A stretch of 64,000 nucleotides of DNA from Akkermansia muciniphila. Lineage in GTDB: Bacteria; Bacillota; Clostridia; Oscillospirales; CAG-272. A program made the translations under genes and the position numbers. A model generated the notes under the pieces. That model did no database searches. It worked only from the letters and a program-made list of their open reading frames with translations, and was not told the DNA's origin. This document shows, in pieces, positions 2,608-64,000 of this stretch (position 1 is its first letter; each line of letters begins with the position of its first letter). The stretch covers positions 11,602 to 75,601 of the forward strand of contig CAVDSZ010000009.1 in the NCBI GenBank assembly GCA_963611795.1, in the 5' to 3' direction.

Positions 2608-4316
2608 CGCTTGGAAGTCTGTTTGACGGAATCGGAGGTTTCCCTCTCTGCGCCGTCCTTTCGGGAGTAACGCCAATATGGGCGGCAGAGGTTGACGCAG
2701 CGTGTGTTGCCCTGACGAAACAGCGCTTTCCCAGTATGCGTCATTATGGGGATGTTTCTAAAATCAACGGGGCGGATTTGCCGCCTGTGGACATTATCAC
2801 ATTCGGTTCACCGTGTCAGGATTTAAGTGTGGCAGGTAAACGGGCCGGTATCAAGAATACAAGCAAAGGCGACGGCGAAACGACCCGCAGCGGGCTTTTC
2901 GTCGAAGCAATCAGAATCATTTATGAAATGAGGGAGGCAACACATGGTAGGTATCCAACTTTCATTGTTTGGGAGAACGTACCCGGCGCATTCATTAGTC
3001 ATCATGGACACGATTTTCAAACCGTGCTTGAAGAAATCACAAAAACCGATATTCCAATGCCTGCAAGTGGAAAATGGGCAAGCGCAGGAATGGTTCGAGG
3101 GGGGGCAATCTGCGCCGCTTGGCGATTGTTTGACGCTCAATATTGGGGAGTGCCCCAGCGAAGGAAGCGAATCTACCTTGTCGGAAGTTTTGGAAGTGAT
3201 TGTGCCGCGGAAATACTATTTAAGCCGGACAGCGTGCGACGGTATCTTACGCCGAGCGGAGCGCAGAGGGCGGACGTTGGACGAAATTCTGACGCAGGCG
3301 CTGAAAGAAGCCAATTCGTTTTTGACGGTCGTGGAAACGGAAACGGACGGGTTGCACCGACCATGATGGGAGATCATAACAACCGAATCACTGATTATTC
3401 GGCAATCGTCCTACAATCCTTCGGTTTTCACGGCTGGAACAGCGTGACGGCGGCGGGGTTGGAACTGCGAAAGGAGCAAGCACCGACACTAACCGCAAAG
3501 AAGCAGGCCGACGCGCTTATAAAAACATACGGTTTCCCGCTTGGATTCAGACCGGAGAACACCCGCCTATACGAAGAAAAAGCGACAACTATTTGCAACG
3601 GTACACGTCCGGGGTTTTGCAACGGCGTTGTGGTTGGTGTAGATACATACAATCAGACAGTCACAGGCGAAAAGGCAAAAACACTTCTTGCCAAACATCA
3701 AGACGCAGACGGACTTCCGTGTGTGGTATATGCCGTTGATCGAGCGGCTTTCAATCAGGGAGAAAATGCGCTTTATGATTTCAGTATTTCGCAAAGCGGT
3801 GTCGCACAAACAGTCATTGCAAAGGAGCCGTCTGCCGTCGCTTACTCTTTGCAAGGGTCAATGTTCGGGCGTGAAGATCAAAACGGGCCGAACGGAAACG
3901 GCGTGAATAAGGATGTGTGCTTTACGCTGAACACGGCAGACCGACACGGTGTAGCATACGAAATGACGGTTGAAGAATTTGTGTATTGGTGCGTGCGGCG
4001 GCTGACACCGAAAGAGTGCGAACGCTTGCAGGGCTATCCGGATTTTTGGACGGTTCTCCGGAAGATCGCAACCATGACTGACGAAGAATACGAATTTTAC
4101 AAAGCCACATACATCACCGACAAAGAAATCAAAGGGAAAACGGTCAGGAGAATTCCGACCAAAAAGCAGTTGATCAATTGGCATAACAAACTGGACGTGG
4201 ACGGCACACGATACCGCCAGCTTGGAAATTCTCTTGCTATTCCCTGCGCATTGCGGGTGATTGGATATATCGCAGATTACATCAGAGAGGGAGCGGGTCA
4301 GGATGAAGGACAATGA
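2592..4316 (+). CDS. DNA (cytosine-5)-methyltransferase, orphan, with an enlarged target-recognition region
   Basis: Motif I LFDGIGGF, motif IV GSPCQDLSVAG, motif VI ENVPG, motif VIII QRRKRIYLVG, motif IX RRLTPKECERLQGYP and motif X YRQLGNSLAIP are all present in order. About 270 aa separate motifs VIII and IX. Confidence 0.9.
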   Translation: MDRRITLGSLFDGIGGFPLCAVLSGVTPIWAAEVDAACVALTKQRFPSMRHYGDVSKINGADLPPVDIITFGSPCQDLSVAGKRAGIKNTSKGDGETTRSGLFVEAIRIIYEMREATHGRYPTFIVWENVPGAFISHHGHDFQTVLEEITKTDIPMPASGKWASAGMVRGGAICAAWRLFDAQYWGVPQRRKRIYLVGSFGSDCAAEILFKPDSVRRYLTPSGAQRADVGRNSDAGAERSQFVFDGRGNGNGRVAPTMMGDHNNRITDYSAIVLQSFGFHGWNSVTAAGLELRKEQAPTLTAKKQADALIKTYGFPLGFRPENTRLYEEKATTICNGTRPGFCNGVVVGVDTYNQTVTGEKAKTLLAKHQDADGLPCVVYAVDRAAFNQGENALYDFSISQSGVAQTVIAKEPSAVAYSLQGSMFGREDQNGPNGNGVNKDVCFTLNTADRHGVAYEMTVEEFVYWCVRRLTPKECERLQGYPDFWTVLRKIATMTDEEYEFYKATYITDKEIKGKTVRRIPTKKQLINWHNKLDVDGTRYRQLGNSLAIPCALRVIGYIADYIREGAGQDEGQ

Positions 4317-21729: not shown

Positions 21730-23988
21730 ATGGAGTACATCAAGGAAATCTGCGCCGATTTTTCAGGCGAGGGACTGTTTGACTATATCACCGCAGTGCA
21801 AGGCGACAGTGCGCGCGGTGTCCGGATCAAAATTATTGCAAACAATCAGCGGTATATCCCTGAATCAGGGGCAAGCGCCGTTCTCCGGGCAAAGAAACCG
21901 GACGGAACATACATTCTGAACGATGGCGCAATCGAGGACGGCGGAACAATAAAGGCAATGTTCAGCGAACAGATGACCGCCGCTGTCGGAAACTGCCGCT
22001 GTGAACTGACGCTTTACGGCGCAAACGGCGGAACGCTTACAACCGTGAAATTCATCCTGAAGGTGTCCCCTGCGTCCCTTGCACCGGACATCGAAAGCAA
22101 AGACGAATTTCAATCGCTGGAAAATGCACTTACCGACGTGAAAAAATCAAGCGGCATTGCGCAGGCGGCGTTGGAAGCAGCAACGGAAGCGCTGGAAAAG
22201 ACGGGAGAAGTGGAGGCAGAAATCGCTTCCCACATTACGGCGGCAGAACAGGCAACCACTGCCGCAAACGCGGCAGCTGCCAATGCCAACGAAAAAGCGT
22301 CTGCCGCCAACACGGCGGCAGGAACTGCCAACACCGCCGCACAAAATGCGAACAAGAAGGCGGCAGCGGCAAACACTGCGGCGAATGCGGCAAATACCGC
22401 AGCGCAGAACGCAGGCGATAAAGCAACCGCCGCCGATACCGCCGCAGGAACGGCGAACACTGCGGCACAAAATGCAAACAGCAAAGCAAGTGCCGCCAAT
22501 ACCGCTGCAACCAGCGCAACGACCGCCGCAGAACGGGCAAACGCCGCAGCGGAGCAGGCGGAGGAAATCGTCAGGACGGCAGAAGGCATTATTACCCGCT
22601 ACGGCGTACACTTCGGCGGAGCGGCAAACACGGGCGAAACCGTTTCCCGCTTGTATAATGCTGTGGGACTTGTGGCAGGCGTGGGAACAGATACAGAAGC
22701 CCCGCAAAACGACTTTGACAACATCTTCCCATGGAATGCGCGCCGCCGCTGTTGCGGTTATTGGGACGAAAACGGAAACTTTGTTGTAAATGCCTACAAG
22801 GGTGAACCGGGCTATGCCGAGGACGGAACAAACGGTGAAGTATGGATAGAACATTCCCTGTTCTATTTCAAACACGAATACGGCGGGACTGATGAAACAA
22901 TCGTCATTTCTGCGACCAAACTTGCGGGATTTGAGCCTGCGCCGATCTTCCAAAAGAACGGCAACAAAGACGCCCCGTATCAAAAGGCATATACCCCGGC
23001 ATTTCCGATGGCAACCGTGGACAACAAACCGACTTCCCGCGCGGGTGTGTTCTCCGGTCTGTATTCGTTGAATTCGGCAATGACAGACGCAAGGAAGGCA
23101 GGCGCAAACTACACGACCACAACCGCCGCAGAGCAATACACGGAATGCCTGTATATGTGGGTGGAATTTGCTACACGCAATTTGCAAAGCGTAATGGTAG
23201 GCGCAACGGGTATGCCGTACACTGACGGCGGCACGGCGACCGTGGCGGAAACGGGCGTAAACCGCATTATTGTTTCAAATGCCGTTGCTGCAAAATATGT
23301 TGTCGGTCAGACAATCGGTATTGGCGCTTCGCTTGGTTCGACTGCGATTGCAAATAACCGCATTGTAACGGCAATCGAGACATACGACGACGCGAACAAA
23401 GCAATTTCTTTTGACGGCGCGGCGGTCAATATTGCCGTCGGCAATATCATTTTCACACTGGCATGGAAAAACGGTTCTTGTGCGTCCGTCATTGCTTCGA
23501 GCGGTTCACCCGTATCAAATACAAGCGGCAAATATAATTGCGTGTACCGTGGGAAAGAAACACCATATGGAAATTCCTTTGAATGGATTTCGGATATTCT
23601 TTTGAAACGAGAGGGAGCGGGGACGGAAGAAAGCCCCTACACCTACACACCGCAGTACCTGCCGGACGCAACAAAATACGCAAACGGTACAATCACGGAA
23701 GATTATGTGCCGATGAACTTCAAACTGCCGACCGCAGACGGATATGTAAAAAGGCTTGGAATTGACAGTCGTTTCCCGTGGGCGCGCCTGCCCTGCGAAA
23801 CCGGGGCCGGCTCTACCACGTATTACAGCGACTATTACTATTTTCCGCGCTATGCGACGTGCGCGGCGCGTGTCGGCGGCTACTGGTACACCGGGTCGCC
23901 CGCTGGCCCGTGCTACTGGTGCTGCGACACCGCCCCTTCGGGCACGAGTGTGGACTTTCGTGCGCGCCTTTCTTACCACCGGAATTAA
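21730..23988 (+). CDS. Receptor-binding / tail fibre protein with a BppU-like N-terminus and a C-terminal DGR variable region (DGR target protein)
   Basis: The N-terminus MEYIKEICADFSGEGLFDYITAVQGDSARGVRIKI resembles the baseplate upper protein (BppU) N-domain. An Ala/Asn-rich heptad stalk follows. The last ~40 aa (VGGYWYTGSPAGPCYWCCDTAPSGTSVDFRARL) are the VR copy of the downstream template repeat and are typical of C-type-lectin-fold DGR targets. Confidence 0.85.
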   Translation: MEYIKEICADFSGEGLFDYITAVQGDSARGVRIKIIANNQRYIPESGASAVLRAKKPDGTYILNDGAIEDGGTIKAMFSEQMTAAVGNCRCELTLYGANGGTLTTVKFILKVSPASLAPDIESKDEFQSLENALTDVKKSSGIAQAALEAATEALEKTGEVEAEIASHITAAEQATTAANAAAANANEKASAANTAAGTANTAAQNANKKAAAANTAANAANTAAQNAGDKATAADTAAGTANTAAQNANSKASAANTAATSATTAAERANAAAEQAEEIVRTAEGIITRYGVHFGGAANTGETVSRLYNAVGLVAGVGTDTEAPQNDFDNIFPWNARRRCCGYWDENGNFVVNAYKGEPGYAEDGTNGEVWIEHSLFYFKHEYGGTDETIVISATKLAGFEPAPIFQKNGNKDAPYQKAYTPAFPMATVDNKPTSRAGVFSGLYSLNSAMTDARKAGANYTTTTAAEQYTECLYMWVEFATRNLQSVMVGATGMPYTDGGTATVAETGVNRIIVSNAVAAKYVVGQTIGIGASLGSTAIANNRIVTAIETYDDANKAISFDGAAVNIAVGNIIFTLAWKNGSCASVIASSGSPVSNTSGKYNCVYRGKETPYGNSFEWISDILLKREGAGTEESPYTYTPQYLPDATKYANGTITEDYVPMNFKLPTADGYVKRLGIDSRFPWARLPCETGAGSTTYYSDYYYFPRYATCAARVGGYWYTGSPAGPCYWCCDTAPSGTSVDFRARLSYHRN
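22237..22566 (+). repeat. Ala/Asn/Thr-rich heptad repeats (xANTAAx) encoding a predicted coiled-coil stalk in the RBP
   Basis: AANTAAG TANTAAQ NANKKAA AANTAAN AANTAAQ NAGDKAT AADTAAG TANTAAQ NANSKAS AANTAAT has 7-residue periodicity. The low-complexity GC-rich DNA produces several long spurious ORFs on other frames and on the opposite strand. Confidence 0.8.
23858..23975 (+). repeat. DGR variable repeat (VR), at the 3' end of the RBP gene
   Basis: A gap-free 118-bp alignment to 24037-24154 has 105 identities and 13 mismatches. Every mismatch lies opposite an adenine in the TR copy. Confidence 0.92.
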
Positions 23989-24154: not shown

Positions 24155-24288
24155 TAGCAACACAACCAAAACGGGAAAACCTTTGCACATTATATTCCTT
24201 GCCGCTTGGCAAAAATTGTTGCTACGGCGGGGTTTAGTAAGCGTTCGTCGCCCAACGACCCCGAAACTATAAGAAAGGAACTGTAAAA

Positions 24289-25551
24289 ATGAAATCTTTT
24301 CATATAGACCGTAATATGAAAGACAAGGTTAAAATACGCCTTGCAATCGAAAAAGTATGTAAAAGCAAAAAGAAGCGAAACGGACGACCGACGAAGAAAT
24401 ACCGTCAGGCGCAGAAAATTCTTGCAAATATTGACCGCTACACGGATTTGATTCATACGATTGTCTGCGAAACCGAGGAAAAAGAACGGGCAATCAAAAG
24501 CGGGACATACCGTGACGGTGATTTTCCGAATGCTTTTGTTCCACACATTTCCGGTTCATTTACCCGCAAGTGTGAAAACGGGAAGGTTCGCGTCATTACA
24601 AGCGTCCCGGTCTTTCCGGATCAGATCATTCACCAGCTTGTCATCAAGTCTGCGGAAAGCGTTTTTATGCGCGGGATGTACCGCTTTTCCTGCGGGTCAA
24701 TTCCAAAGCGAGGGGTTCACAAGGGAAAGCAATACTTGGAACGCTATATCGGCAGAAACAGGCGCAGCAGTGCAATCAAATATGCGGCGCAGTTAGACAT
24801 CCGGAAATGCTATCCGCATATACGGCACGATGTTTTGAAGGAAATGTTGCGTCGAAAATTCCGTGGCAGTCTGTTCCTTTGCTTCTGCTTCTCTATTATC
24901 GACAGTTGCAGCGAAAAGGACGCACCCGGCGTTGGGCTTCCAATCGGCTTCTATACTTCGCAGTGGTTTTGCAATTTTCTTCTGACACCGCTTGATACAT
25001 ATATCAAGCAGGAATTAAAGGTCAAATGTCATGTGCGGTATGTGGATGACATGACGATGTTTTCCAACAACAAGAAGAAACTTCATCGGATTGTTGATTG
25101 TATTATAGAAAAAGCCGCTTCCATGGGGCTTCAAATCAAAGACAACTGGCAAGTGTTCCGGTTCGATCACATTGTGGGATTCCGGGTAAACCCAAAGACG
25201 GGAAAGCAAGAAGAAATCCACAAAGGGCGTGCAATCGACACTTTGGGATTCCGGTTCTTCCGGAACAAAACGATATTGAGAAAGAGGAATGCGCTTTCCA
25301 TTCGTCGCTGTGCGGCACGTCTTGCCAAAGCAAAGAGAATCACGCCACACCGGGCGCGTTCGTTCATGTCAAAAATCGGAGCATTGAAGCACTGCAATTC
25401 CCGGAACTTTTGGCGGAAATACGTCAAGCCGCTTGTAAAAATCAAAAAGTTAAAGGAGATCATCAGAAATGAGGACAGAAAGCAACATCAAACCCGAAGT
25501 GCTGGCGGTGGAAGAATGCGCACAGGGGCTTGCAGAAATTGTTTTGCGTGA
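24289..25551 (+). CDS. DGR-type reverse transcriptase
   Basis: QLDIRKCYPHIRHD (Asp-containing motif A-like), LPIGFYTSQWFCNF (the [I/L/V]GxxxSQ motif characteristic of DGR RTs, nt 24943-24963) and RYVDDMTMF (YxDD catalytic motif, nt 25039-25050). It lies 134 nt downstream of TR. Confidence 0.9.
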   Translation: MKSFHIDRNMKDKVKIRLAIEKVCKSKKKRNGRPTKKYRQAQKILANIDRYTDLIHTIVCETEEKERAIKSGTYRDGDFPNAFVPHISGSFTRKCENGKVRVITSVPVFPDQIIHQLVIKSAESVFMRGMYRFSCGSIPKRGVHKGKQYLERYIGRNRRSSAIKYAAQLDIRKCYPHIRHDVLKEMLRRKFRGSLFLCFCFSIIDSCSEKDAPGVGLPIGFYTSQWFCNFLLTPLDTYIKQELKVKCHVRYVDDMTMFSNNKKKLHRIVDCIIEKAASMGLQIKDNWQVFRFDHIVGFRVNPKTGKQEEIHKGRAIDTLGFRFFRNKTILRKRNALSIRRCAARLAKAKRITPHRARSFMSKIGALKHCNSRNFWRKYVKPLVKIKKLKEIIRNEDRKQHQTRSAGGGRMRTGACRNCFA

Positions 25552-56952: not shown

Positions 56953-57737
56953 GAGCCCCGGAGAGCACCGTCGAAGTGCATGGTATCGTCGTCAACACGA
57001 TCGATATCGGCGAGCGCGATCGTCTCTTTCAGCTTTTGACCGCGGAGCGCGGATTGTTGACGGTGTATGCGAACGGGGCACGCACCCTGAAAAATCGTTA
57101 TCTCACGACAACGCAGCTTTTCTGCTACGGCAGGTATTTCCTTGCCGAGAAAAACGATCGATATACCGTACAGGACGTGACATTGGAGGAATCCTTTTAC
57201 GATCTGCGCCGTGAGGTGGATCGGGCCGCACTCGGTGCCTATATCTGCGAGGTCGCGACCTACACGGGGACGGAAGTGCCGGACACAGAACTTCTGCGGC
57301 TGATTCTCAACACCTTGTATGCGGTATCGCGAGGACTGTTTCATCTGGTGCTCATCAAAGCGGCGTTTGAATTCCGCATGGCGGCGGAACTGGGGTTCAT
57401 GCCGGATGTAACCGCCTGTGCCGTGTGCGGCATCACCGAAGGAGAGTTTATCTTTGACTTGTCCGCAGGGAATTTGATTTGCCGTGATTGCCGTGATACG
57501 CTGACCGCGCGTGCGCTGTACGAGGAAGGAATGGGTGAACACCGCATCGAGATGCTGACGCCCGGTGTGCGCGCTGCCGTGGAATACGTGTTGTCAGCAC
57601 CGCCCGAGCGCCTCTTTTCTTTCCGATTGGAAGAGGATGATTTGCACATCTTCGCGCATGCGGCGGAGGATTATCTCGTTTGGCACACCGACCACCAATT
57701 TTCCACGCTGGAATTCTATCACCAGGTGGCACTTTAA
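56949..57737 (+). CDS. recO: DNA repair protein RecO
   Basis: Follows era with an ATGA overlap. It has an OB-fold N-terminus and a CAVCG...CRDC zinc motif. Confidence 0.85.
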   Translation: MRAPESTVEVHGIVVNTIDIGERDRLFQLLTAERGLLTVYANGARTLKNRYLTTTQLFCYGRYFLAEKNDRYTVQDVTLEESFYDLRREVDRAALGAYICEVATYTGTEVPDTELLRLILNTLYAVSRGLFHLVLIKAAFEFRMAAELGFMPDVTACAVCGITEGEFIFDLSAGNLICRDCRDTLTARALYEEGMGEHRIEMLTPGVRAAVEYVLSAPPERLFSFRLEEDDLHIFAHAAEDYLVWHTDHQFSTLEFYHQVAL

Positions 57738-57744
57738 GAAAAAT

Positions 57745-60132
57745 ATGATTTTTACCGAAAAAACTAGAGCCATATTGGAATTTGACAAAATTGTACGTCT
57801 GCTTGCCGATTCCTGCAGTACCGCCGGGGCGAAAGCCCGGGCGCTTGCGCTGTCTCCGACAGATGATGAGGTGCTGGTTTCGCGGCGACTTGCGAGGACG
57901 AGCGACGCGTGCCGTCTCGTCGATGTAAAAGGGTACCCAGGGTTTGATGCCTGCGAGGATGTGCCGGATGCCGCGGAGCGCGCAGAAAAGGGCGCGACGC
58001 TGACGACGACGGAACTGCTGCATATCGCGTCCATGCTTCGCTCGGTCGCCGGTTGCATTTCTTACGCGAAAGAGAATCATCCGTTTGATACAACGTTGGA
58101 CGAAGTGTTCGACCGACTGTTGCCGAATCCGACACTGGAACGGAAGATTACAAGGAGCATCATCTCGCCGGAACTTATCTCCGATGACGCGAGCCCGGCA
58201 CTCGCAGACATTCGACGCCAGATCCGCGCGGCACAGAACCGCATCAAAGAGGCGCTTCTCAGCTATGTGACCGGCTCCCGGCAACGTGCGCTTCAGGAAA
58301 ATATCGTGACGATTCGCGACGGTCGCTACGTAATTCCCGTCAAGCAGGAATACAAAGGGGAAGTCAAGGGAATCGTCCATGATACGTCCTCTTCCGGTGC
58401 TACGGTCTTCATTGAACCCATGGCGGTCGTGGACGCGAACAACGACCTGCGCGCCCTGGAAATCAAAGAGACACGCGAGATCGAGCGGATCCTTGCGGAG
58501 CTCAGCGCCGATTGTGCTGCGTTCGGCGGCTCCATCCGGCAGGATTATTACAATATAACAGATTTGGCATTCACCTTCGGCTGTGCATCGCTTTCCGAGC
58601 GCATGAGTGGTTGTGCCCCTCGTCTGTCCGACCGACGGATGCTCGATCTGCGTCGGGCTCGGCACCCTTTGATTGATAAAGATCGGGTCGTTCCGGTTGA
58701 TGTTTCGCTTGGCGTGGATTTTGATACGCTGATTATTACCGGACCCAATACGGGTGGTAAAACCGTAACGCTCAAAACAATGGGGCTTTTCGCCGCGATG
58801 ACGCAGTCCGGGCTTCATATCCCGGTTTCCCCGGATTCGACTGTTGGGGTATTTGACGCGATTTTGGTGGATATCGGTGACGAGCAGAGTATTGAGCAGT
58901 CACTCTCCACATTTTCGTCTCACATGGTGAATGAAGTGCAGATGCTGCGGGATACCACCCCGCGATCTCTCGTGCTCTTTGACGAACTGGGGGCAGGTAC
59001 CGATCCCGTAGAGGGAGCGGCACTGGCTATCTCGATTTTGGAAGAATGTCGTAATGCCGGTGCGCTTGCCGCCGCAACGACTCACTATACGGAACTGAAA
59101 ATGTACGCGCTCGACACACCGGGTGTCAGGAACGCTAGTTGCGAGTTCGACGTAGAGACGCTTCGGCCGACGTATCGACTGATGATCGGTGCACCCGGAA
59201 AATCAAATGCTTTTGCCATTTCGGAAAAGCTCGGACTGCCGAGGGAAGTGGTCAATCGTGCGCGCGAGTTGGTGAGTGCGGATAACCGTCGCTTCGAGAC
59301 AATCCTGGAAGAGCTTGAAAAAACTCGCTTCGAAATGGAGCGTGAGCGAGAAGAGGCAGCTAAGTTACGTCGTGAATACGAAGCGCACAAAACGCGCGCG
59401 GAGGCAGATCTCGCTCGCCGTCTGCGCGAAGGAGAAGAAGCCATTAAGCGTGATCGCGACCGTGCCCGTCAACTTCTCGACAGCGCCCGTGTATCCAGCG
59501 AATTTGTGTTTCACCAACTGGAAGAACTCCGCAAAAAAGAAGATGCGAAGAGTCGTGCGGCAGCGCTTGAGGCAACAAGACGTGCCGTGCGCGAGCAGAT
59601 GCGATCGGCGGAAAAAACATGGTCGGAAACGGAGTTCGAGGGGACGGAATCGGAAGAAAAATATGTACTGCCGCGTCCGCTCCGCATCGGAGATAAAATC
59701 TATATTGTCTCCTACCGAGCAGAGGGCGAGGTCACGGCACTTCCGAGAGGCAAAGACGTTGAAGTGCGTGCGGGCGTATTTCGCGGCAAGGTGCCGATTT
59801 CCGATGTGCGCTTGCTCAGCGATATGAAAAAACGCGAGGCACCGAAGCCGAAAAGCGAAACAAAAGTCGCCCGAGGCGGCGTTGCCGCATTTACGCCGGA
59901 ACTCGATGTGCGTGGCAGATACGGCGATGATGCATGGTTTGAGGTAGATCGATACCTTGACGAGGCGGTGCTCGCCGGCGTGGAAACGGTTAGGATTATT
60001 CACGGAAAGGGGACCGGGGCGCTACGCGTGGCACTCCATCGGGAACTGAAAGCGGATTCGCGGGTTAAATCGTTCCGCCTCGGAGAACTCGGCGAGGGGG
60101 ATTCGGGCGTAACGGTCGTGACGCTGAAATAA
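57745..60132 (+). CDS. mutS2: Endonuclease MutS2 (with C-terminal Smr domain)
   Basis: ORF 57565..60132. The start was moved to ATG 57745 (MIFTEKTRAILEFDKI). TGPNTGGKTVTLKT Walker A is present. The C-terminal LDVRGRYGDDAW...IIHGKGTGALR is an Smr domain. Confidence 0.9.
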   Translation: MIFTEKTRAILEFDKIVRLLADSCSTAGAKARALALSPTDDEVLVSRRLARTSDACRLVDVKGYPGFDACEDVPDAAERAEKGATLTTTELLHIASMLRSVAGCISYAKENHPFDTTLDEVFDRLLPNPTLERKITRSIISPELISDDASPALADIRRQIRAAQNRIKEALLSYVTGSRQRALQENIVTIRDGRYVIPVKQEYKGEVKGIVHDTSSSGATVFIEPMAVVDANNDLRALEIKETREIERILAELSADCAAFGGSIRQDYYNITDLAFTFGCASLSERMSGCAPRLSDRRMLDLRRARHPLIDKDRVVPVDVSLGVDFDTLIITGPNTGGKTVTLKTMGLFAAMTQSGLHIPVSPDSTVGVFDAILVDIGDEQSIEQSLSTFSSHMVNEVQMLRDTTPRSLVLFDELGAGTDPVEGAALAISILEECRNAGALAAATTHYTELKMYALDTPGVRNASCEFDVETLRPTYRLMIGAPGKSNAFAISEKLGLPREVVNRARELVSADNRRFETILEELEKTRFEMEREREEAAKLRREYEAHKTRAEADLARRLREGEEAIKRDRDRARQLLDSARVSSEFVFHQLEELRKKEDAKSRAAALEATRRAVREQMRSAEKTWSETEFEGTESEEKYVLPRPLRIGDKIYIVSYRAEGEVTALPRGKDVEVRAGVFRGKVPISDVRLLSDMKKREAPKPKSETKVARGGVAAFTPELDVRGRYGDDAWFEVDRYLDEAVLAGVETVRIIHGKGTGALRVALHRELKADSRVKSFRLGELGEGDSGVTVVTLK

Positions 60133-60139
60133 CAGGTAA

Positions 60140-61320
60140 AGATGCCATTGAAACAGCCGCAAAAAATCGCTGAAAGTCAAGGTTTTTTTCAGAAAAAGTC
60201 GAAAAAATTTATTCCGAGGGCGGAAAGCTCGGAAATAAAGAGTTCTTCGGAAGTGTGCCAGCCCAGTAGTTTTCTAGGCATTTGATTGATATAACGGGCG
60301 GTCTCCCGGAGATTGGCGTCGGAATAATGTCGGATCGGAGTACCCTTCTTGATAAAACGGCGGATAATGCGGTTTTGGTTCTCGTTGGATCCGCGCTCGC
60401 CGGAGCGGTACGGGTGACAGAAATAGACCTTCGTCCGGCGGGAATTACCGTCAATCGATAATTCCATGCCGCGATAGTCCGAAAATTCACAACCGTTATC
60501 GCAAGTGATCGTGCGGAAGATCCGCGAAAAGTTCTTTTTGCCGAGCGATCGTTCCAGTCGGTCAAGGCAGTTAACGACCGATGCGGCGGTTTTATCTTTG
60601 GAGCGGAAGATCAGTTCATAGCGCGTTTTGCGCTCGGTAAAGGTCAGGAGCGTCTCTCCCCTTGTTTGCTTGCCGATGACGCTGTCCAGTTCCCAATGCC
60701 CCGCGGTAGATCTCTCTTGGATCTCTGCGGGGCGTTGTTCTATGGAGGTGCCGCGGAGAGGCTGACGTAACGGGCGCGGGTGCTTCTTCTGCTCGCGCCG
60801 TTTCCCCTGCATGAGCAGATTCTTGTTTGATAGGCGCAGGAACACGCCGGAATCTATATAGTGATACAAGGTAGTCACGCAGACGGTCGTGGCTACCTTT
60901 ATCTTTTTTCGTTTGATTTCTGCCAATGCTGCCGCCGGGGAGAGTTTACGATCTACGATCAATTCTTCGATCACGCGGGCAAACTCACGATCTTTGCCGA
61001 TTTTAAGTGGCGCGCCTTTAGCTGTTGCCCGATAATCTGATGTCTGTTGCGCTTTATCTGCCGAATATTTTCGCACCGTTTTCCATGTATCTCCATCTAA
61101 ATGGTCATACAGCCCTAAACGGATTTCCCGATAAATCGCGACATTATGGAAACCGAGTTCTTTCGAGATGGCATACGGATTCATGTGAAAACGGTTATAC
61201 ATGGTTTCGATCCGGACACGGTCGGCATAGGTGATACGGCGGTAGGTTCTGTTCGGCATTCTTGGCGGTTCTGTCCTTTCTTATTGTGTGGAGAGCGGAT
61301 AAGAGACCGTCAGACAAAGC
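60140..61320 (-). mobile_element. Second IS30-family insertion sequence (ends not resolved)
   Basis: A single IS30-type transposase. The 3' flanks of the two IS30 genes share a loose CTTGAC...AGCGA(A/T)TTTT pattern, but no convincing inverted repeats were identified. Confidence 0.55.
60189..61259 (-). CDS. IS30-family transposase (DDE), diverged paralog of 28531..29589
   Basis: HWELDSV (D), ITCDNGCEF (D) and ERGSNENQNRIIRRFIKKG (E). It is colinear with the first copy but clearly different at most positions. Confidence 0.9.
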   Translation of the reverse strand: MPNRTYRRITYADRVRIETMYNRFHMNPYAISKELGFHNVAIYREIRLGLYDHLDGDTWKTVRKYSADKAQQTSDYRATAKGAPLKIGKDREFARVIEELIVDRKLSPAAALAEIKRKKIKVATTVCVTTLYHYIDSGVFLRLSNKNLLMQGKRREQKKHPRPLRQPLRGTSIEQRPAEIQERSTAGHWELDSVIGKQTRGETLLTFTERKTRYELIFRSKDKTAASVVNCLDRLERSLGKKNFSRIFRTITCDNGCEFSDYRGMELSIDGNSRRTKVYFCHPYRSGERGSNENQNRIIRRFIKKGTPIRHYSDANLRETARYINQMPRKLLGWHTSEELFISELSALGINFFDFF

Positions 61321-61712
61321 GGATCGACGGCGCCCGGCGAGGTTTCGCTCGGGCGGCCGTCAATCTCTTTCTTCGTCTGACGGTCAGACAATAGACGCCC
61401 GGCGTTGCCGGGCGGGAATGACGGTTGAGTGTTTCGCCCTCTGCGGAGGGCGATGAGGCTATAAGGTAGTGAAGCCCCGATAGGGCTTCACCGAGGGGAA
61501 CCTCCGTCCGCGGTTCCCCTATTCAATGCAACGCTAACCGCTTTGCGGGTCCGTGCTCCGCACGGGCGTTGCGTCCCCTCCCTGCGAACTTACAAAGTAC
61601 AAAGGGTTACTTCGGCGTTTGCGCCGATGGTACTTTGGTCAGAGATCATAGCGTCGTGCGCGTTCTGTTGACATAACGGCATAACGCGTGAGGGGAGCCT
61701 CGGAGGGGCTCC
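61305..61712. ncRNA. Candidate large structured RNA / hairpin-dense non-coding element (strand and identity unknown)
   Basis: At least 9 GC-rich hairpins lie in ~410 nt with no credible ORF. They include an 11-bp perfect outer stem 61305-61315/61375-61385 enclosing further helices, 8 bp at 61396-61414, 7 bp at 61435-61452, 9 bp at 61469-61491, 9 bp at 61494-61520, a three-way-junction-like 61528-61572, and 8 bp at 61593-61637 enclosing 61613-61626. Confidence 0.5.
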
Positions 61713-61745
61713 GGGGCGGGTTTGTATGGGGGTGCGGTTTTGCCT

Positions 61746-61937
61746 TTATTCCGGTTTGCCGTCTCTCGTCATCGTTTCCGCGATGGCTCTTTGAATAAAG
61801 GCGTTGACACTCTCCCCACGGCTTTCCGCGTGTGCGCGGATAATGTCCTTTTGCCCTTTGGGGAGCGTCAGGTTGACGCGATCGTATTTCTCATTTATGA
61901 ACGAGTTTATATACTTTGATTGATTAAAAGTCGGCAT
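61746..61937 (-). CDS. Ribbon-helix-helix (Arc-like) DNA-binding protein
   Basis: 63 aa. ...EKYDRVNLTLPKGQKDIIRAHAESRGESVNAFIQRAIAETM has the same layout as the RHH protein at 28287..28478. It is divergent from an operator-bearing promoter. Confidence 0.65.
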   Translation of the reverse strand: MPTFNQSKYINSFINEKYDRVNLTLPKGQKDIIRAHAESRGESVNAFIQRAIAETMTRDGKPE

Positions 61938-61986
61938 AAAATCACCTCGATATTAGAATAACAAAAAGCCGCATTTTACGCAATAT

Positions 61987-62071
61987 ACATTATGCACAAA
62001 ATGCAGGCACAATTTTTTATGTTTTTAGTAGAACATTATGCGCAAAATCCTATTGACATTATGCGCATAAT
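61987..62071. promoter_or_regulatory. Three direct copies of a 16-bp operator-like box ACATTATGCRCAWAAT, the last containing a perfect 14-bp palindrome
   Basis: The boxes lie at 61987-62002, 62033-62048 and 62056-62071. ATTATGCGCATAAT (62058-62071) is its own reverse complement and lies in the promoter spacer. Confidence 0.65.
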
Positions 62072-62081
62072 GTATTATAAT
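62053..62081 (+). promoter_or_regulatory. Perfect consensus sigma-A promoter TTGACA-17 nt-TATAAT
   Basis: TTGACA at 62053-62058, a 17-nt spacer, TATAAT at 62076-62081. An AAGGAGG RBS and ATG 62105 follow. Confidence 0.75.
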
Positions 62082-62104
62082 AGTATCAGAAAGGAGGTAA
62101 GAAG

Positions 62105-62239
62105 ATGATACCGGCAGGAGAACAGGAGATGGAAGCCATGACAACAGGCGAAGAACTCCGGCTCATTCAATACTTGCGTGAAGTCGGTTGGTCGGACACG
62201 GCAATTATTAAGCTACTTATCTACATTTTGAGCAGATAA
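62105..62239 (+). CDS. Small ORF, 44 aa (below the ORF-track cutoff)
   Basis: Hand-translated as MIPAGEQEMEAMTTGEELRLIQYLREVGWSDTAIIKLLIYILSR. It has a strong RBS (AAAGGAGGT) and lies behind the consensus promoter. Confidence 0.5.
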   Translation: MIPAGEQEMEAMTTGEELRLIQYLREVGWSDTAIIKLLIYILSR

Positions 62240-62288
62240 AGAAACGACCGCTAGCGATGGTAGCGCGTAGCGGTCACCCGTAAACAAA

Positions 62289-62320
62289 GGGGAGCAAGTC
62301 CTGCCCTTGCTCCCTTAGTT
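62289..62320 (+). terminator. Hairpin followed by a T-rich tail
   Basis: GGGAGCAAG (62289-62297), a 7-nt loop, CTTGCTCCC (62305-62313), then TTAGTTT. The T-run is weak. Confidence 0.45.
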
Positions 62321-62360
62321 TAACAAAGGCAGAAAAGAAAGTCAAGAGGAGACGCCAAAA

Positions 62361-62852
62361 ATGACATACAGATTTTTTCAAAAGGTGGAGACGCTCGAAG
62401 ATCTCCGCGCGCAATATAAAAAACTCGCGATGCAGTACCACCCCGACCGGGGCGGCAGTACGGAGGACTTCCAAGCCCTCGGCGCGGAGTATGAAGAACT
62501 GTTAAAGACCGTCGGCAGCACCCGCCGGAACAAAGACGGCGAGACCTACACAAAGCAAGGCTACAACGCCGCCGCTGACCGGTTCAAGGACATTATCGAC
62601 CGGATCATCCATTACGATGTCACGATCGAGATCTGCGGCTGCTGGGTGTGGGTCGGCAATGCGTACAACTACCGGAAGGAACTGAAAGAAGCGGGCTTCT
62701 TCTGGTGCTCCTCCAAAAAGATGTGGGCATGGGCGGAAGAACCCTACACAACCGCCGTTAAGATCTCTATGGATCGAATCCGCGAGATCTACGGCTCGGA
62801 GGTTGTGAAGCGTGACGACGCCGGGCGGCGGTTGCTCCCGGCGACAGCATAA
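62361..62852 (+). CDS. J-domain (DnaJ-like) protein of mobile-element type
   Basis: LEDLRAQYKKLAMQYHPDRGGSTEDFQALGAEYEELL contains the HPD motif. The C-terminal Trp-rich domain is of unknown function. Confidence 0.8.
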   Translation: MTYRFFQKVETLEDLRAQYKKLAMQYHPDRGGSTEDFQALGAEYEELLKTVGSTRRNKDGETYTKQGYNAAADRFKDIIDRIIHYDVTIEICGCWVWVGNAYNYRKELKEAGFFWCSSKKMWAWAEEPYTTAVKISMDRIREIYGSEVVKRDDAGRRLLPATA

Positions 62853-62888
62853 GGAAGGAGGCGGGCGGCGAAAGCCGCCCGAAACACG

Positions 62889-63356
62889 ATGACGGAGGAA
62901 CTGAAAGACCTGTTTCGGCATGCGGACACCAGCGGCTACATTGACGCATTCGGATGGCATTGCTACATACAAAGACCGGCGCGGATCACTTCGGCGAACA
63001 AGATCCTATCACTTGACCGCACCGCCGCCGAGGGAATCCGATCCGCCGAGGCGGTCATCGAACGGCTGCGGGAATACCGGCTCGCCCTCTATGAACGGCA
63101 CCGGGAGATCCTCGCGAGCAATTACCGGTTACGGTTGCAACTGCGCCGCATCCCCGATTGGACTTCCGGCGTGACCTATACCGTCACGCTCTGCAAAGTC
63201 TTTGACTTGTCCGGCGTTGCAGAGGAGGCGATCATCTCCGAGAAGTACAGCGGGAAAGAGCGGCACAAAGCGATCAACCGATACCGGGATCTACTTCGGC
63301 AGTACCCCGGCATTGATGCCGAGATGGACATACAGAAAAAGAAATGGGAGAGATAA
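62889..63356 (+). CDS. Hypothetical protein (155 aa)
   Basis: ORF following the J-domain gene on the same strand. No motif recognised. Confidence 0.5.
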   Translation: MTEELKDLFRHADTSGYIDAFGWHCYIQRPARITSANKILSLDRTAAEGIRSAEAVIERLREYRLALYERHREILASNYRLRLQLRRIPDWTSGVTYTVTLCKVFDLSGVAEEAIISEKYSGKERHKAINRYRDLLRQYPGIDAEMDIQKKKWER

Positions 63357-63499
63357 AACAGGCACCCGCCGCGGCGGGTGCCTTCTCTATTCGTATTTTG
63401 CAAGGTAACGATTGCCCTTTAAGCCTTTTCGCCCCTTGACAGTCCCGCCGTGGCGAGATAACGATCTTGTTGAAATAAGTTCGAGAGGAGGTGATTCTA

Positions 63500-63586
63500 A
63501 TGCTGCTGTGGTACATTGACGAGTTTATTCGTACGTATAGCGGAATACTTATGAATACGCTGGTCATGCTGTTAACCGCATTATAA
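63500..63586 (+). CDS. 28-aa hydrophobic micro-ORF
   Basis: Hand-translated as MLLWYIDEFIRTYSGILMNTLVMLLTAL. A strong RBS (GAGAGGAGGTG) lies 7 nt upstream of ATG 63500. Confidence 0.35.
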   Translation: MLLWYIDEFIRTYSGILMNTLVMLLTAL

Positions 63587-63674
63587 TCCCCAGCCTCTCT
63601 CACCGGGTAGTATATCACGCCCCGGTGAGATTGTCAAGCCTACATACCTCAATCCTCCCCGTACCGGGAAAAGG

Positions 63675-63989
63675 CTACTTCGGTTCAATCGAGTGTTCGG
63701 TGGGAACGGGCAACTCTGTTTGCGGAGGATCGGCGGCAGGCTCCGGCTTCGCCTTCTGCAAATCGGCGAGGAATTGCCGGAAGGCGGCTTTACACGCTTT
63801 CCGATACGCACGGGACACATCGTTCCGCCAAAACAGGACGCCGCGCGGGATATAGTACCGTTTCTTGAAACGCATCTCATAAATCTGACGCGCGTTTTTG
63901 AGAAGTTCGGCACTTAACAGGTCGTCAAGTTCCTGCTTGTATGCCGTCGTGAGGGCGTCGCTCATCGTCTTGTATTGCTTATCCGGCAA
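63675..63989 (-). CDS. Hypothetical protein (104 aa)
   Basis: ORF at the window edge on the minus strand. No motif recognised. The start could be ATG 63989 or the internal MSDAL. Confidence 0.4.
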   Translation of the reverse strand: MPDKQYKTMSDALTTAYKQELDDLLSAELLKNARQIYEMRFKKRYYIPRGVLFWRNDVSRAYRKACKAAFRQFLADLQKAKPEPAADPPQTELPVPTEHSIEPK

Positions 63990-64000
63990 TAACGCACGGT

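What the first reader, a model, noticed from the sequence alone, without database searches (positions are those of the whole stretch)
61262..61740. 486-bp ORF-free interval packed with at least 9 GC-rich hairpins: candidate large structured RNA
This stretch lies between the IS30 transposase start and the RHH gene. It folds on paper into a dense series of strong helices:
- (i) An 11-bp perfect stem GACCGTCAGAC/GTCTGACGGTC (61305-61315 / 61375-61385). It encloses an 11-bp bulged helix (61326-61361) and a 4-bp tip.
- (ii) CGCCCGGC-GTT-GCCGGGCG (61396-61414).
- (iii) CGCCCTC-TGCG-GAGGGCG (61435-61452), whose loop is a UNCG-type tetraloop on the + strand.
- (iv) GTGAAGCCC-CGATA-GGGCTTCAC (61469-61491).
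- (v) AGGGGAACC-9 nt-GGTTCCCCT (61494-61520).
- (vi) GCAACGC...GCGTTGC (61528-61572). It encloses two small hairpins, giving a three-way junction.
- (vii) CAAAGTAC...GTACTTTG (61593-61637). It encloses CGGCG-TTTG-CGCCG.
- (viii) CGCGTT...AACGCG (61659-61688).
- (ix) GGAGCC...GGCTCC (61694-61712).

In addition, the segment GTCTGACGGTCAGAC (61375-61389) is itself palindromic and could pair alternatively to helix (i).

This density and regularity far exceed ordinary intergenic DNA or a terminator. The size and the mobile-element context recall the large ornate RNAs ROOL, GOLLD and HEARO, or an intron or ribozyme fragment. I could not recognise RNase P, tmRNA, group II intron domain V or riboswitch signatures. 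Stacked REP/MITE-like palindromes or an IS30 palindromic target cluster are alternative explanations.
Basis: partly seen in the sequence, partly recalled or inferred. Interest (0 to 1): 0.7.

Follow-up and report, generated by a model that had tools for sequence, protein, structure and literature searches.

The report
Hairpin-rich control region of filamentous prophage
The hairpin-packed 486-bp gap is real and strongly conserved, but it lies inside an integrated filamentous (inovirus-like) single-stranded-DNA phage of a gut Clostridia bacterium. It is most likely that phage's non-coding control region rather than a free-standing ornate RNA.

Summary
All nine helices are at the stated coordinates. 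The interval folds far better than shuffled sequence on both strands (RNA z -7.9 on + and -10.5 on -; DNA z -9.4 and -11.3). No Rfam family matches, even at E<=10.

The "IS30 transposase" is not a stray insertion sequence. It sits at the very end of an integrated inovirus-like prophage that runs off the window's right edge. Relatives keep the same gene order: Zot, p126, a reverse module, RHH, a ~489-bp gap, then the transposase. After the transposase comes either a Rep_trans gene (circular 11.7-kb form) or unrelated host genes.

Eleven variants of the gap show that stems are protected: 18 of 274 paired columns vary, against 68 of 219 unpaired columns. A 163-nt core has only 8 variable columns, while third codon positions of the neighbouring transposase gene are 66-88% identical.

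I read the gap as the phage's intergenic control region. It is a set of hairpins on the viral (window minus) strand, probably the complementary-strand origin and the packaging signal, plus a terminator. This is inferred by analogy with Ff phages and sso elements. A phage-encoded structured RNA, or a leader RNA for the transposase, is not excluded. One hairpin is shared with a dispersed repeat found in gut metagenome contigs.

The parts
57565..60132 (+). Host gene mutS2 (context). It marks the host side of the prophage junction.
   Evidence: Pfam MutS_V 1.7e-31 and Smr 7e-23.
60169..60188 (-). Right terminus of the mobile element. On the minus strand it reads ...CCTTGACTTTCAGC, after which similarity to relatives stops.
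   Evidence: The terminus TTGAC(A/T)TT(C/T)(A/G)(C/G) is conserved in relatives whose transposases are 55-92% identical. It is followed by different host DNA, or by the Rep side of the phage in circular forms.
60189..61259 (-). IS30-family DDE transposase (356 aa), used as the phage's integrase.
   Evidence: PHROG 4646 transposase 3e-106 and Pfam HTH_38. Always the last gene before the host junction or before Rep_trans.
61260..61295 (-). Transposase leader with the ribosome-binding site (AAGAAAGGAC). The most variable part of the gap.
   Evidence: 15 of 37 columns vary, but AGAAAGGAC is invariant.
61305..61385 (-). Hairpin (i): an 81-nt, roughly 32-bp bulged hairpin. Candidate packaging-signal-like element, or an insulator ahead of the transposase.
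   Evidence: Covariation across the window, L010, L002 and L015 lineages (4 pairs with double changes). A 63-99-nt stem-loop domain ends 5-50 nt before the estimated transposase start in the eight relatives with 53-58% transposase identity. It is absent from the plain IS copies L111/L117.
61396..61414 (-). Hairpin (ii): intrinsic-terminator-like on the minus strand.
   Evidence: An 8-bp G+C stem followed by TCTATTGTCT. The tail is TCTATTTTT(T/C) in 5 of 11 variants.
61428..61589 (-). Ultra-conserved core holding hairpins (iii) 61434-61453, (iv) 61469-61491, (v) 61494-61520 and the three-way junction (vi) 61528-61572.
   Evidence: 8 variable columns of 163 among 11 variants, two of which form one compensatory pair (U-A to C-G). 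A hairpin like (v), with the loop GCGGA(N)RRA, recurs in L072-L076.
61593..61637 (-). Hairpin (vii): the outer helix CAAAGTAC/GTACTTTG encloses CGGCG-loop-CGCCG.
   Evidence: Stems are invariant while the inner loop and the bulge vary (CAAA or CCAT). Homologous segment in L002 (73% identity).
61645..61688 (-). Hairpin (viii), plus a weak promoter-like site (ATGTCA-18-TATGAT) on the minus strand. It contains ATGTCAA, the inverse of the terminal TTGACAT motif.
   Evidence: Promoter scan 9/12. TATGAT is invariant in the 11 variants and ATGTCA is kept in 9 of 11. Partly kept in L002. Whether this is an internal left end of an ancestral IS is unresolved.
61697..61717 (-). Hairpin (ix), redrawn as CGGAG-NNN-CTCCG with a short outer stem.
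   Evidence: Kept in 9 of 11 variants, one of them through a G.U on the minus strand; two single variants each have one A.C mismatch.
61746..61937 (-). Arc/RHH DNA-binding protein (63 aa). Its reading frame runs into the hairpin block.
   Evidence: Pfam Arc 1.6e-4 and PHROG 13890 2.8e-21.

Best explanation
The interval is the principal non-coding intergenic region of an integrated inovirus-like (filamentous, rolling-circle, ssDNA) phage of a gut Clostridia bacterium.

The phage carries an IS30-family transposase as its last gene and uses it for integration. The prophage begins about 20 bp beyond the transposase stop (about 60170) and runs off the right end of the window.

The hairpins are most likely read on the viral strand. 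That is the strand encoding Rep, Zot and the transposase, and it is the window's minus strand.

Proposed working (inferred, not shown):
1. After infection or rolling-circle synthesis the genome is single-stranded. The conserved core hairpins (61428-61589) then fold and serve as the complementary-strand origin, where host RNA polymerase or primase makes a primer. One long hairpin, probably (i), serves as the packaging signal recognised by the assembly machinery.
2. In the double-stranded or prophage state the same region is transcribed from the RHH side. Hairpin (ii) terminates that transcript, and the long hairpin (i) shields the transposase gene from read-through.

Shown: the phage context, the conservation, the selection on stems, and the terminator-like shape of (ii).
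Inferred by analogy with the Ff intergenic region and plasmid sso elements: the origin and packaging roles.
For: Context
- L001, identical to the window, continues into a Zot-like gene (Pfam Zot 2e-7).
- L166 is an 11,772-bp contig with a 55-bp terminal repeat, so it is a circular 11.7-kb relative. Its gap is 97% identical by BLAST. It carries Rep_trans (3.7e-31) and Zot (7e-10), in the order Rep...Zot-p132-[reverse module]-RHH-gap-transposase-Rep.
- About 20 loci keep this synteny. Downstream of the transposase lies either Rep_trans (L010, L014, L166, L273, L276) or unrelated host genes: mutS2, AI-2E transporter, GH3, acetate kinase, His_Phos_1, Metallophos/topoisomerase.
- The junction lies at a conserved terminus.
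- Related IS30-like transposases in Clostridia MAGs sit next to G2P-type Rep or Zot genes.
- Inoviruses with IS30/IS3 transposases and with Rep_trans initiators are described in PMC6668415.

Selection
- Among 6 variants the gap core (61393-61689) is 92-99% identical, against 66-88% at transposase third codon positions and about 80% in the RHH gene.
- Among 11 variants the narrower core 61428-61589 has 8 variable columns of 163.
- Paired columns vary in 18 of 274 cases, unpaired in 68 of 219 (Fisher 8e-13). Only 4 non-pairing cells occur among 1507, and 3 pairs show double compensatory changes.

Strand
- z-scores are more extreme on the minus strand.
- One-sided changes in shared helices keep a G.U/T on minus at 8 pairs, whereas A.C mismatches (which would be G.U on plus) occur at 2 pairs.
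- The T-tail of (ii) is on the minus strand only.

Position and analogy
- Apart from the transposase cassette, the gap lies directly upstream of the Rep side. This matches the Ff intergenic region, which lies between gene IV and gene II and whose hairpins direct replication and assembly (PMC10334589; Ff and IKe packaging-signal stems of 24 and 22 bp, bioRxiv 10.1101/2023.12.30.573655).
- sso elements are extensive hairpins on the displaced strand and work in one orientation only (PMC5703833, PMC8860593).
- The nearest deposited inovirus, bajarodino virus 12, also has a 1.5-kb unannotated hairpin-rich stretch after its Zot module, structured mainly on the coding strand.

No Rfam family matches.
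Against: - No experiment or sequence homology links any hairpin to an origin or a packaging signal.
- The ssoA signature is weak. An 8-nt piece of RSB (TTATGCCG, 61684) and CS-6 (TAGCGT, 61536) lie on the right strand. But the 8-mer occurs 10 times and the 6-mer 11 times in the window, their spacing differs from ssoA, and neither is enriched upstream of the transposases in relatives.
- The strand evidence is not decisive. Predicted on its own, the plus strand forms more pairs and has lower absolute energy, and the 8:2 wobble count gives p = 0.055.
- A long hairpin fixed just upstream of the transposase start, and a terminator-like (ii), are RNA-level features and fit a transcript-based role equally well.
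- The Rep nick site (plus-strand origin) is probably not in this gap. A conserved hairpin GTGCCCCCCC-GCTAACA-GGGGGGCAC lies next to Rep instead.
- The left end of the prophage was never seen, so integration of the whole phage by the transposase is inferred from one end only.
Confidence: 0.5

Rival explanations
1. The block is a functional structured RNA made by the phage. One form is a non-coding RNA of about 250-350 nt, or a long structured 3' UTR of the RHH mRNA, starting at or upstream of the weak promoter at 61674-61645 and ending at terminator (ii). The other form is a long leader that attenuates transposase expression.
For: - Stems are protected and change by compensation or G.U.
- The 163-nt core is more conserved than the neighbouring synonymous sites.
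- Hairpin (ii) is terminator-like on the strand that RHH is transcribed from, with a good T-tail in 5 of 11 variants.
- A weak promoter-like site (9/12) has an invariant -10 element in all 11 variants.
- The long hairpin keeps its place just before the transposase start in lineages with 53-92% transposase identity, and is followed by TTTTT in L075 and L076.
Against: - No Rfam hit at E<=10.
- No GNRA or UNCG tetraloops on the minus strand. Most loops there are 3-nt (AAC, GGA, AAA, CCC), which is more usual for DNA hairpins and terminators (sequence; own knowledge).
- The promoter is weak.
- The near-invariance of the core in loops as well as stems suits protein or polymerase recognition sites at least as well.
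- No expression data.
Confidence: 0.3
2. The block is a pile-up of REP/MITE-like palindromic repeats, or a palindromic target cluster favoured by IS30-type insertion. It would then have no phage-specific function.
For: - The 20-mer of hairpin (iii) has exact matches in more than 120 metagenome stretches.
- In about 116 of them it is the last hairpin of an ~85-nt three-hairpin repeat, often lying 80-160 nt after the end of unrelated genes. Several copies occur per assembly.
- L002 and L015 keep the same hairpin at other positions in their gaps, so the modules shuffle.
Against: - Only positions 291-342 of the gap match those contigs; the other hairpins do not.
- There is no second copy of hairpin (iii) in the 64-kb window at up to 3 mismatches.
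- In every locus recovered that carries more than hairpin (iii), the block lies in the phage synteny.
- The core is far more conserved than neutral sites. Inert repeats would not be.
Confidence: 0.07
3. Most of the block is the 5' part of a long IS30-family insertion sequence whose left inverted repeat lies at hairpin (viii). On this reading it belongs to the IS and not to the phage.
For: - ATGTCAA at about 61672-61678 is the inverse of the terminal TTGACAT motif.
- In L072-L076 a similar CTTGTCAAGGG lies about 140 nt upstream of the transposase, just before the long hairpin.
Against: - The shared motif is only 7 nt and overlaps the -35 consensus.
- Plain IS copies of this clade (L111, L117) are 1.18 kb, with about 95 nt of leader and no hairpin block.
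- The prophage-host junction is at the right end only. Phage DNA, not host DNA, follows hairpin (viii) in every locus.
Confidence: 0.08

Closest known systems
Intergenic region of Ff phages (f1/M13/fd) and IKe
   Same: - A single non-coding stretch of about 500 nt in a filamentous ssDNA phage.
- Built of several hairpins, including one long one.
- Lies between the end of the morphogenesis and accessory genes and the replication gene.
- In Ff the hairpins direct packaging and both origins (own knowledge for the five hairpins A-E).
   Different: - No sequence or Rfam relation.
- Here an IS30-type transposase gene lies between the region and Rep.
- The Rep is of the Rep_trans type, not the HUH type of gpII.
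- The host is a Gram-positive-type Clostridia bacterium.
- The functions of the individual hairpins are untested.
Single-strand origins (ssoA/U/T/W) of rolling-circle plasmids of Firmicutes
   Same: - Extensive hairpins on the displaced strand that work in one orientation only.
- Often separated from the rep gene.
- Found on Rep_trans replicons such as pT181.
- A partial RSB and a CS-6 hexamer lie on the expected strand.
   Different: - sso elements are about 160-300 nt and usually form one large hairpin.
- The motif matches here are at chance level, and their spacing is about 148 nt against about 67 nt.
Inoviruses that carry IS30/IS3-family transposases (Vespertiliovirus of Spiroplasma) and the IS30-edged, virus-particle-packaged element in Pumilibacteraceae (bioRxiv 10.64898/2026.07.08.737213)
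   Same: - A filamentous-phage module combined with an IS30-family transposase at the edge of the integrated element.
- Insertion next to ordinary housekeeping genes.
   Different: - This lineage also keeps a Rep_trans initiator.
- Neither source is seen to describe a conserved hairpin block in the passages read.
Bajarodino virus 12 (PQ006185, Inoviridae), the nearest deposited genome
   Same: - Zot 39% identical.
- A 1.5-kb unannotated, hairpin-rich stretch after the Zot module, structured mainly on the coding strand.
   Different: - Annotated with an "integrase" gene and no transposase.
- No sequence similarity in the non-coding region.
Large ornate RNAs (ROOL, GOLLD, HEARO/omega RNA, OLE, raiA)
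   Same: - Several hundred nucleotides long with many helices.
- Mobile-element or phage context.
   Different: No covariance-model match at E<=10.

Membership tests
Rfam structured RNAs (ROOL, GOLLD, HEARO, OLE, raiA, group I/II introns, RNase P, tmRNA, riboswitches) | A covariance-model match to the family. | tested here: not met
   cmscan of 59500-64000, both strands, all 4227 families at E<=10: no hit inside 61262-61745. Gathering-threshold scan of the whole window: only RT-18 at 24200. ARAGORN found no tRNA or tmRNA.
Inovirus-like (Tubulavirales) phage genome, as the host element | A Zot/pI-type morphogenesis ATPase. | tested here: met
   L001 (identical to the window): Pfam Zot 2e-7, PHROG Zot-like 2e-9. 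L166: Zot 7e-10. tblastn hits only Inoviridae records.
Inovirus-like (Tubulavirales) phage genome, as the host element | A small circular genome with a rolling-circle initiator. | tested here: met
   L166 is 11,772 bp with a 55-bp terminal repeat and carries Rep_trans (3.7e-31) plus Rol_Rep_N. This was shown in relatives; the window itself ends before Rep.
Inovirus-like (Tubulavirales) phage genome, as the host element | Coat proteins and filamentous virions. | not testable with these tools
   The candidate structural ORFs (206, 366, 174 and 585 aa) have no Pfam match.
Filamentous-phage intergenic region (Ff type) | The major non-coding, hairpin-rich region lying between the morphogenesis or accessory genes and rep. 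| tested here: met
   Order Zot-p126-[reverse module]-RHH-gap-transposase-Rep in circular forms. The transposase cassette intervenes.
Filamentous-phage intergenic region (Ff type) | Holds the packaging signal, the minus-strand origin and the plus-strand nick site. | not testable with these tools
The likeliest nick hairpin lies next to Rep, outside this gap.
ssoA-type single-strand origin | The RSB sequence and CS-6 (TAGCGT) in a loop, on the displaced strand. | tested here: inconclusive
   TTATGCCG (8 of 17 nt of RSB) at 61684 and TAGCGT at 61536 are both on the minus strand. But the 8-mer occurs 10 times and the 6-mer 11 times in the window, and neither is enriched in relatives. Motif sequences taken from PMC4598088.
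REP/BIME/MITE dispersed palindromic repeats | Many copies dispersed in intergenic regions of one genome. | tested here: not met
   For the block as a whole: single copy in the window, and found only in the phage synteny. For hairpin (iii) alone the feature is met in metagenomes.
IS30-family insertion sequence (is the block part of the IS?) | Lies between the terminal inverted repeats of a unit that moves on its own. | tested here: inconclusive
   The right end is defined. There is an internal ATGTCAA at hairpin (viii), but it is only 7 nt. Plain IS copies have a ~95-nt leader.
Intrinsic terminator (hairpin ii) | A G+C stem followed by a T-run on the transcribed strand. | tested here: met
   The scan lists it on the minus strand. 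The tail is TCTATTTTT(T/C) in 5 of 11 variants and weaker (TCTATTGTCT) in the window.

The most novel reading that the evidence does not exclude
The 163-nt near-invariant core, together with its flanking helices, is a new phage-encoded structured non-coding RNA of about 250-350 nt. It would be made from the RHH side and ended by hairpin (ii), with a function of its own such as lysogeny control, control of the transposase, or an effect on the host. It would then be a new RNA class specific to filamentous phages of gut Clostridia.
Probability: 0.25. Interest if true: 0.7.

Novelty: new variant of a known kind. Interest (0 to 1): 0.5.

Why it matters
- Filamentous phages of Gram-positive gut bacteria are known almost only from metagenomes. 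The packaging signals of integrative filamentous phages are said to be largely unknown, and I know of no mapped origin for this group.
- This region gives a concrete, sharply bounded candidate. It is a 163-nt near-invariant core with defined hairpins, found in a lineage seen both as a circle and inserted at many chromosomal sites.
- It can be tested directly with mini-replicons and packaging assays.
- It also shows how an IS30-type transposase has been built into a rolling-circle phage.
- The shared hairpin hints at a link between phage hairpin modules and a dispersed intergenic repeat seen in gut metagenome contigs.

Tried and rejected
- Similarity searches of the gap: blastn found nothing in phage (INPHARED) or plasmid (PLSDB) records. 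The hairpin (iii) 20-mer has no exact match in IMG/VR.
- Transposase lookup: the exact protein is not on record.
- Hairpin (i) as a pair of transposase-binding ends. Its arms match the window's right terminus at 7 of 9 positions. That is chance level for a scan of this size, and in other lineages the hairpin arms do not follow their own termini. Rejected.
- The dispersed repeat as a TnpB/IscB guide-RNA scaffold. The upstream ORFs are unrelated, apparently ordinary cellular genes, not nucleases, and there is no Rfam family. Rejected.
- ssoA motifs: at chance level.
- Covariance model of hairpin (i). It finds weak hits just upstream of the transposase in L072, L074, L075, L076 and L077 (E 1e-4 to 0.4). 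The pooled alignment mixed both strands and was not used for counting.
- More distant RHH homologues (70% identity or less) belong to other elements. Their downstream gaps are unrelated.
- A mirrored-structure strand test looked decisive (85 mismatches on plus). It is biased, because the structure was predicted on minus. Predicting on plus gives its own G.U-rich fold.
- One long script timed out.
Full report
**1. Observation.**
The sequence shows all nine helices at the coordinates given. Four of them (ii-v) are perfect 8-9-bp stems with loops of 3-9 nt. The 484-nt interval folds far below dinucleotide-preserving shuffles:

| Parameters | + strand z | - strand z |
|---|---|---|
| RNA | -7.86 | -10.51 |
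| DNA | -9.41 | -11.26 |

No shuffle in any of the four tests folded as well. In a GC-corrected scan of 59.9-64 kb, 61301-61600 is the extreme (-4.6 on +, -5.2 on -). In a whole-window scan, 61321-61560 has the lowest raw energy among the 25 windows listed, and adjacent windows also rank near the top on both strands.

Two details need correcting. Helix (ix) is better drawn as CGGAG-NNN-CTCCG (61701-61713), because GGAGCC/GGCTCC is broken in about half of the relatives. Mechanical ORFs of 64 and 42 aa exist on the + strand, but frame-breaking indels among relatives rule them out.

**2. No known RNA family.**
cmscan of 59500-64000 against all 4227 Rfam models at E<=10 gives nothing in the interval. 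The whole window at gathering threshold gives only RT-18 at 24200. There is no tRNA or tmRNA. blastn finds nothing in phage or plasmid records.

**3. Context.**
Close relatives of the transposase (78-92% identity) always lie in the same neighbourhood.
- L010, L014 and L015 read RHH, a ~490-540-bp gap, transposase, then Rol_Rep_N/Rep_trans.
- L015 and L002 have a Zot gene upstream.
- L001, identical to the window, extends it to a Zot-like gene just past 64000.
- L166 is an 11,772-bp contig with a 55-bp terminal repeat, so it is a closed circle of about 11.7 kb. Its gene order is Rep_trans (3.7e-31), 98 aa, DUF3846-like, four larger ORFs, Zot (7e-10), p132, two genes on the other strand (155 aa and DnaJ-like), RHH, the gap (97% identical to the window by BLAST), then the transposase.
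- Thirteen more loci, found through RHH homologues of 71-82% identity, keep the same order. After the transposase they continue into Rep_trans (L273, L276) or into unrelated genes: acetate kinase, His_Phos_1, Metallophos plus topoisomerase, DUF6472, AI-2E transporter.

Similarity always stops at a conserved terminus, TTGAC(A/T)TT(C/T)(A/G)(C/G), about 20 bp after the transposase stop. In the window this is about 60170, with mutS2 ending at 60132.

So the window holds one end of an integrated inovirus-like prophage. That phage uses an IS30-family transposase for low-specificity integration. More distant members of this transposase clade in Clostridia MAGs also sit beside G2P-type Rep or Zot genes. 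The clade also contains plain 1.18-kb insertion sequences (L111 and L117). Inoviruses with IS30/IS3 transposases and with Rep_trans initiators are on record (PMC6668415). A recent preprint describes an IS30-edged element with an inovirus gp2 gene that is packaged in virus-like particles. The nearest deposited genome is bajarodino virus 12 (Inoviridae, Zot 39% identical).

**4. Conservation of the gap.**
Among six variants the core 61393-61689 is 92-99% identical. Third codon positions of the adjacent transposase gene are 66-88% identical, and the RHH gene is about 80%.

Eleven distinct variants were aligned. Variation by segment:

| Segment | Columns | Variable |
|---|---|---|
| Leader 61260-61295 | 37 | 15 |
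| Hairpin (i) 61296-61392 | 98 | 20 |
| 61393-61427 | 35 | 5 |
| Core 61428-61589 | 163 | 8 |
| 61590-61689 | 103 | 21 |
| Distal 61690-61745 | 56 | 23 |

- On the consensus of local helices (137 pairs), only 4 of 1507 cells fail to pair.
- Three pairs carry double compensatory changes: 60:98, 188:196 and 388:429.
- Paired columns vary in 18 of 274 cases against 68 of 219 unpaired columns (Fisher 8e-13).
- Hairpin (i) also covaries in the more distant L002 and L015 lineages (4 pairs).
- The flanks occur as two or three haplotypes that are shuffled among variants, which indicates recombination.

**5. Modules.**
More distant phages keep pieces of the block, but not their order.
- L002 keeps (viii)-(vii) next to its last structural gene, and also hairpins (iii) and (i). 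It has a 28-aa hydrophobic ORF on the other strand in between.
- L015 keeps (iii), a hairpin like (ii), and (i).
- L072-L076 (55-57% transposase identity) have a hairpin with the same CGCA loop as (iii). They also have a GTGAAG...CTTCAC hairpin like (iv), and a hairpin like (v) with the loop GCGGA(N)RRA and a stem lengthened by matched A/T insertions.
- The eight relatives with 53-58% transposase identity (L071-L077, L079) have a 63-99-nt stem-loop domain ending 5-50 nt before the estimated transposase start. L015 and the window have an equivalent 81-nt hairpin, and L002 a shorter one. In L075 and L076 it is followed by TTTTT. The plain IS copies lack it.
- GC-corrected folding energy of the 300 nt upstream of the transposase is below control windows on average (mean -1.7 sd). 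It is lowest in the closest clade (-2.3 to -5.1).

**6. Strand.**
The evidence leans to the minus strand.
- z-scores are more extreme on minus.
- In helices common to both strands, one-sided changes keep a G.U/T on minus at 8 pairs, whereas A.C mismatches (which would be G.U on plus) occur at 2 pairs (binomial p = 0.055).
- The T-tail of (ii) is on minus only.
- All phage core genes are on minus.

It is not decisive. The G+T-rich plus strand, predicted on its own, forms more pairs (154 against 137) with many G.U.

**7. What it most likely is.**
The position matches the Ff intergenic region. Ignoring the transposase cassette, this is the one large non-coding region between the morphogenesis and accessory genes and rep. 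Its size, its hairpin content and its very high conservation match too. In Ff, hairpins direct packaging and replication. It also matches the single-strand origins of Rep_trans and other rolling-circle plasmids. Those are extensive hairpins that work in one orientation only and are read by RNA polymerase.

I therefore propose that the core hairpins act on the single-stranded viral DNA as the complementary-strand origin. One long hairpin, probably (i), would act as the packaging signal. Hairpins (ii) and (i) would also terminate or insulate transcription ahead of the transposase. Only the context, the conservation and the terminator shape are shown. The rest is analogy.

The specific ssoA motifs (a partial RSB and CS-6) are present on the right strand but at chance level. 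The plus-strand nick site is more likely the conserved hairpin next to Rep.

**8. Rivals.**
- A phage-encoded structured RNA or leader fits the terminator, the weak conserved promoter-like site and the fixed place of the long hairpin. It cannot be excluded (0.3).
- REP/MITE stacking is supported for hairpin (iii) only. It is contradicted by single-copy status and by purifying selection (0.07).
- An extended IS whose left end lies at (viii) rests on a 7-nt motif (0.08).

**9. Verdict.**
The most economical reading is the cis-acting control region of a filamentous prophage. This is a new variant of a known kind, of moderate interest, and directly testable.

Noticed in passing
L151-L270 (metagenome contigs); window 61434-61453 for the shared hairpin: An ~85-nt dispersed repeat. 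It begins AAAGTTT, followed by a hairpin with a TTTTCAAAA loop, a second hairpin whose stem covaries freely, then the constant hairpin TCGCCCTCCGCAGAGGGCGA and AA. In many loci it lies 80-160 nt after the end of an unrelated upstream ORF, with several copies per assembly. No Rfam family matches. The phage gap shares only the last hairpin.
   Followed up: partly
L010 2303-2331; also L014 and L166 at the transposase-Rep junction: In the circular forms the right terminus supplies TTGACA and the left end supplies TAATAT 17 nt later (10 of 12 matches). This makes a junction promoter facing Rep_trans that exists only after circularisation, like the junction promoters of IS circles.
   Followed up: partly
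window 63501-63587 (+) and 63609-63637 (-): A 28-aa hydrophobic ORF (MLLWYIDEFIRTYSGILMNTLVMLLTAL) with a strong ribosome-binding site. It is faced by a convergent promoter, TTGACA-17-TATACT (11/12), set inside a hairpin. This looks like a type I toxin/antisense-RNA module. The same peptide lies inside the gap of L002, and similar modules (one or two copies) lie in L072-L076.
   Followed up: partly
window 61985-62081: Three copies of ACATTATGCRCA(A/T)AAT lie between the RHH gene and a perfect promoter (TTGACA-17-TATAAT, 62053-62081, +) for the divergent 44-aa gene. This looks like an operator/promoter switch for the RHH repressor.
   Followed up: no
window 24200-24276 (+) and 24289-25551 (+): An RT-18 RNA (RF03021, 52.5 bits) lies directly upstream of a 420-aa reverse transcriptase ORF (RVT_1 5e-16). 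This is a separate retroelement-type locus in the host part of the window.
   Followed up: partly
L272 5117-6166 (-): A second, different IS30-like gene (349 aa) lies on the opposite strand just beyond the phage's own transposase. IS30-type elements may cluster at this phage end.
   Followed up: no
L271 (bajarodino virus 12) 1980-3531: The deposited inovirus genome has a 1.5-kb unannotated stretch full of G+C-rich hairpins. It is structured mainly on the coding strand (GC-corrected z -3.5 at 2601-2900).
   Followed up: partly
window 22021-22680: The only other place in the window with four perfect hairpins (stem of 7 bp or more) within 480 nt. It lies inside the long ORF 21730-23988.
   Followed up: no
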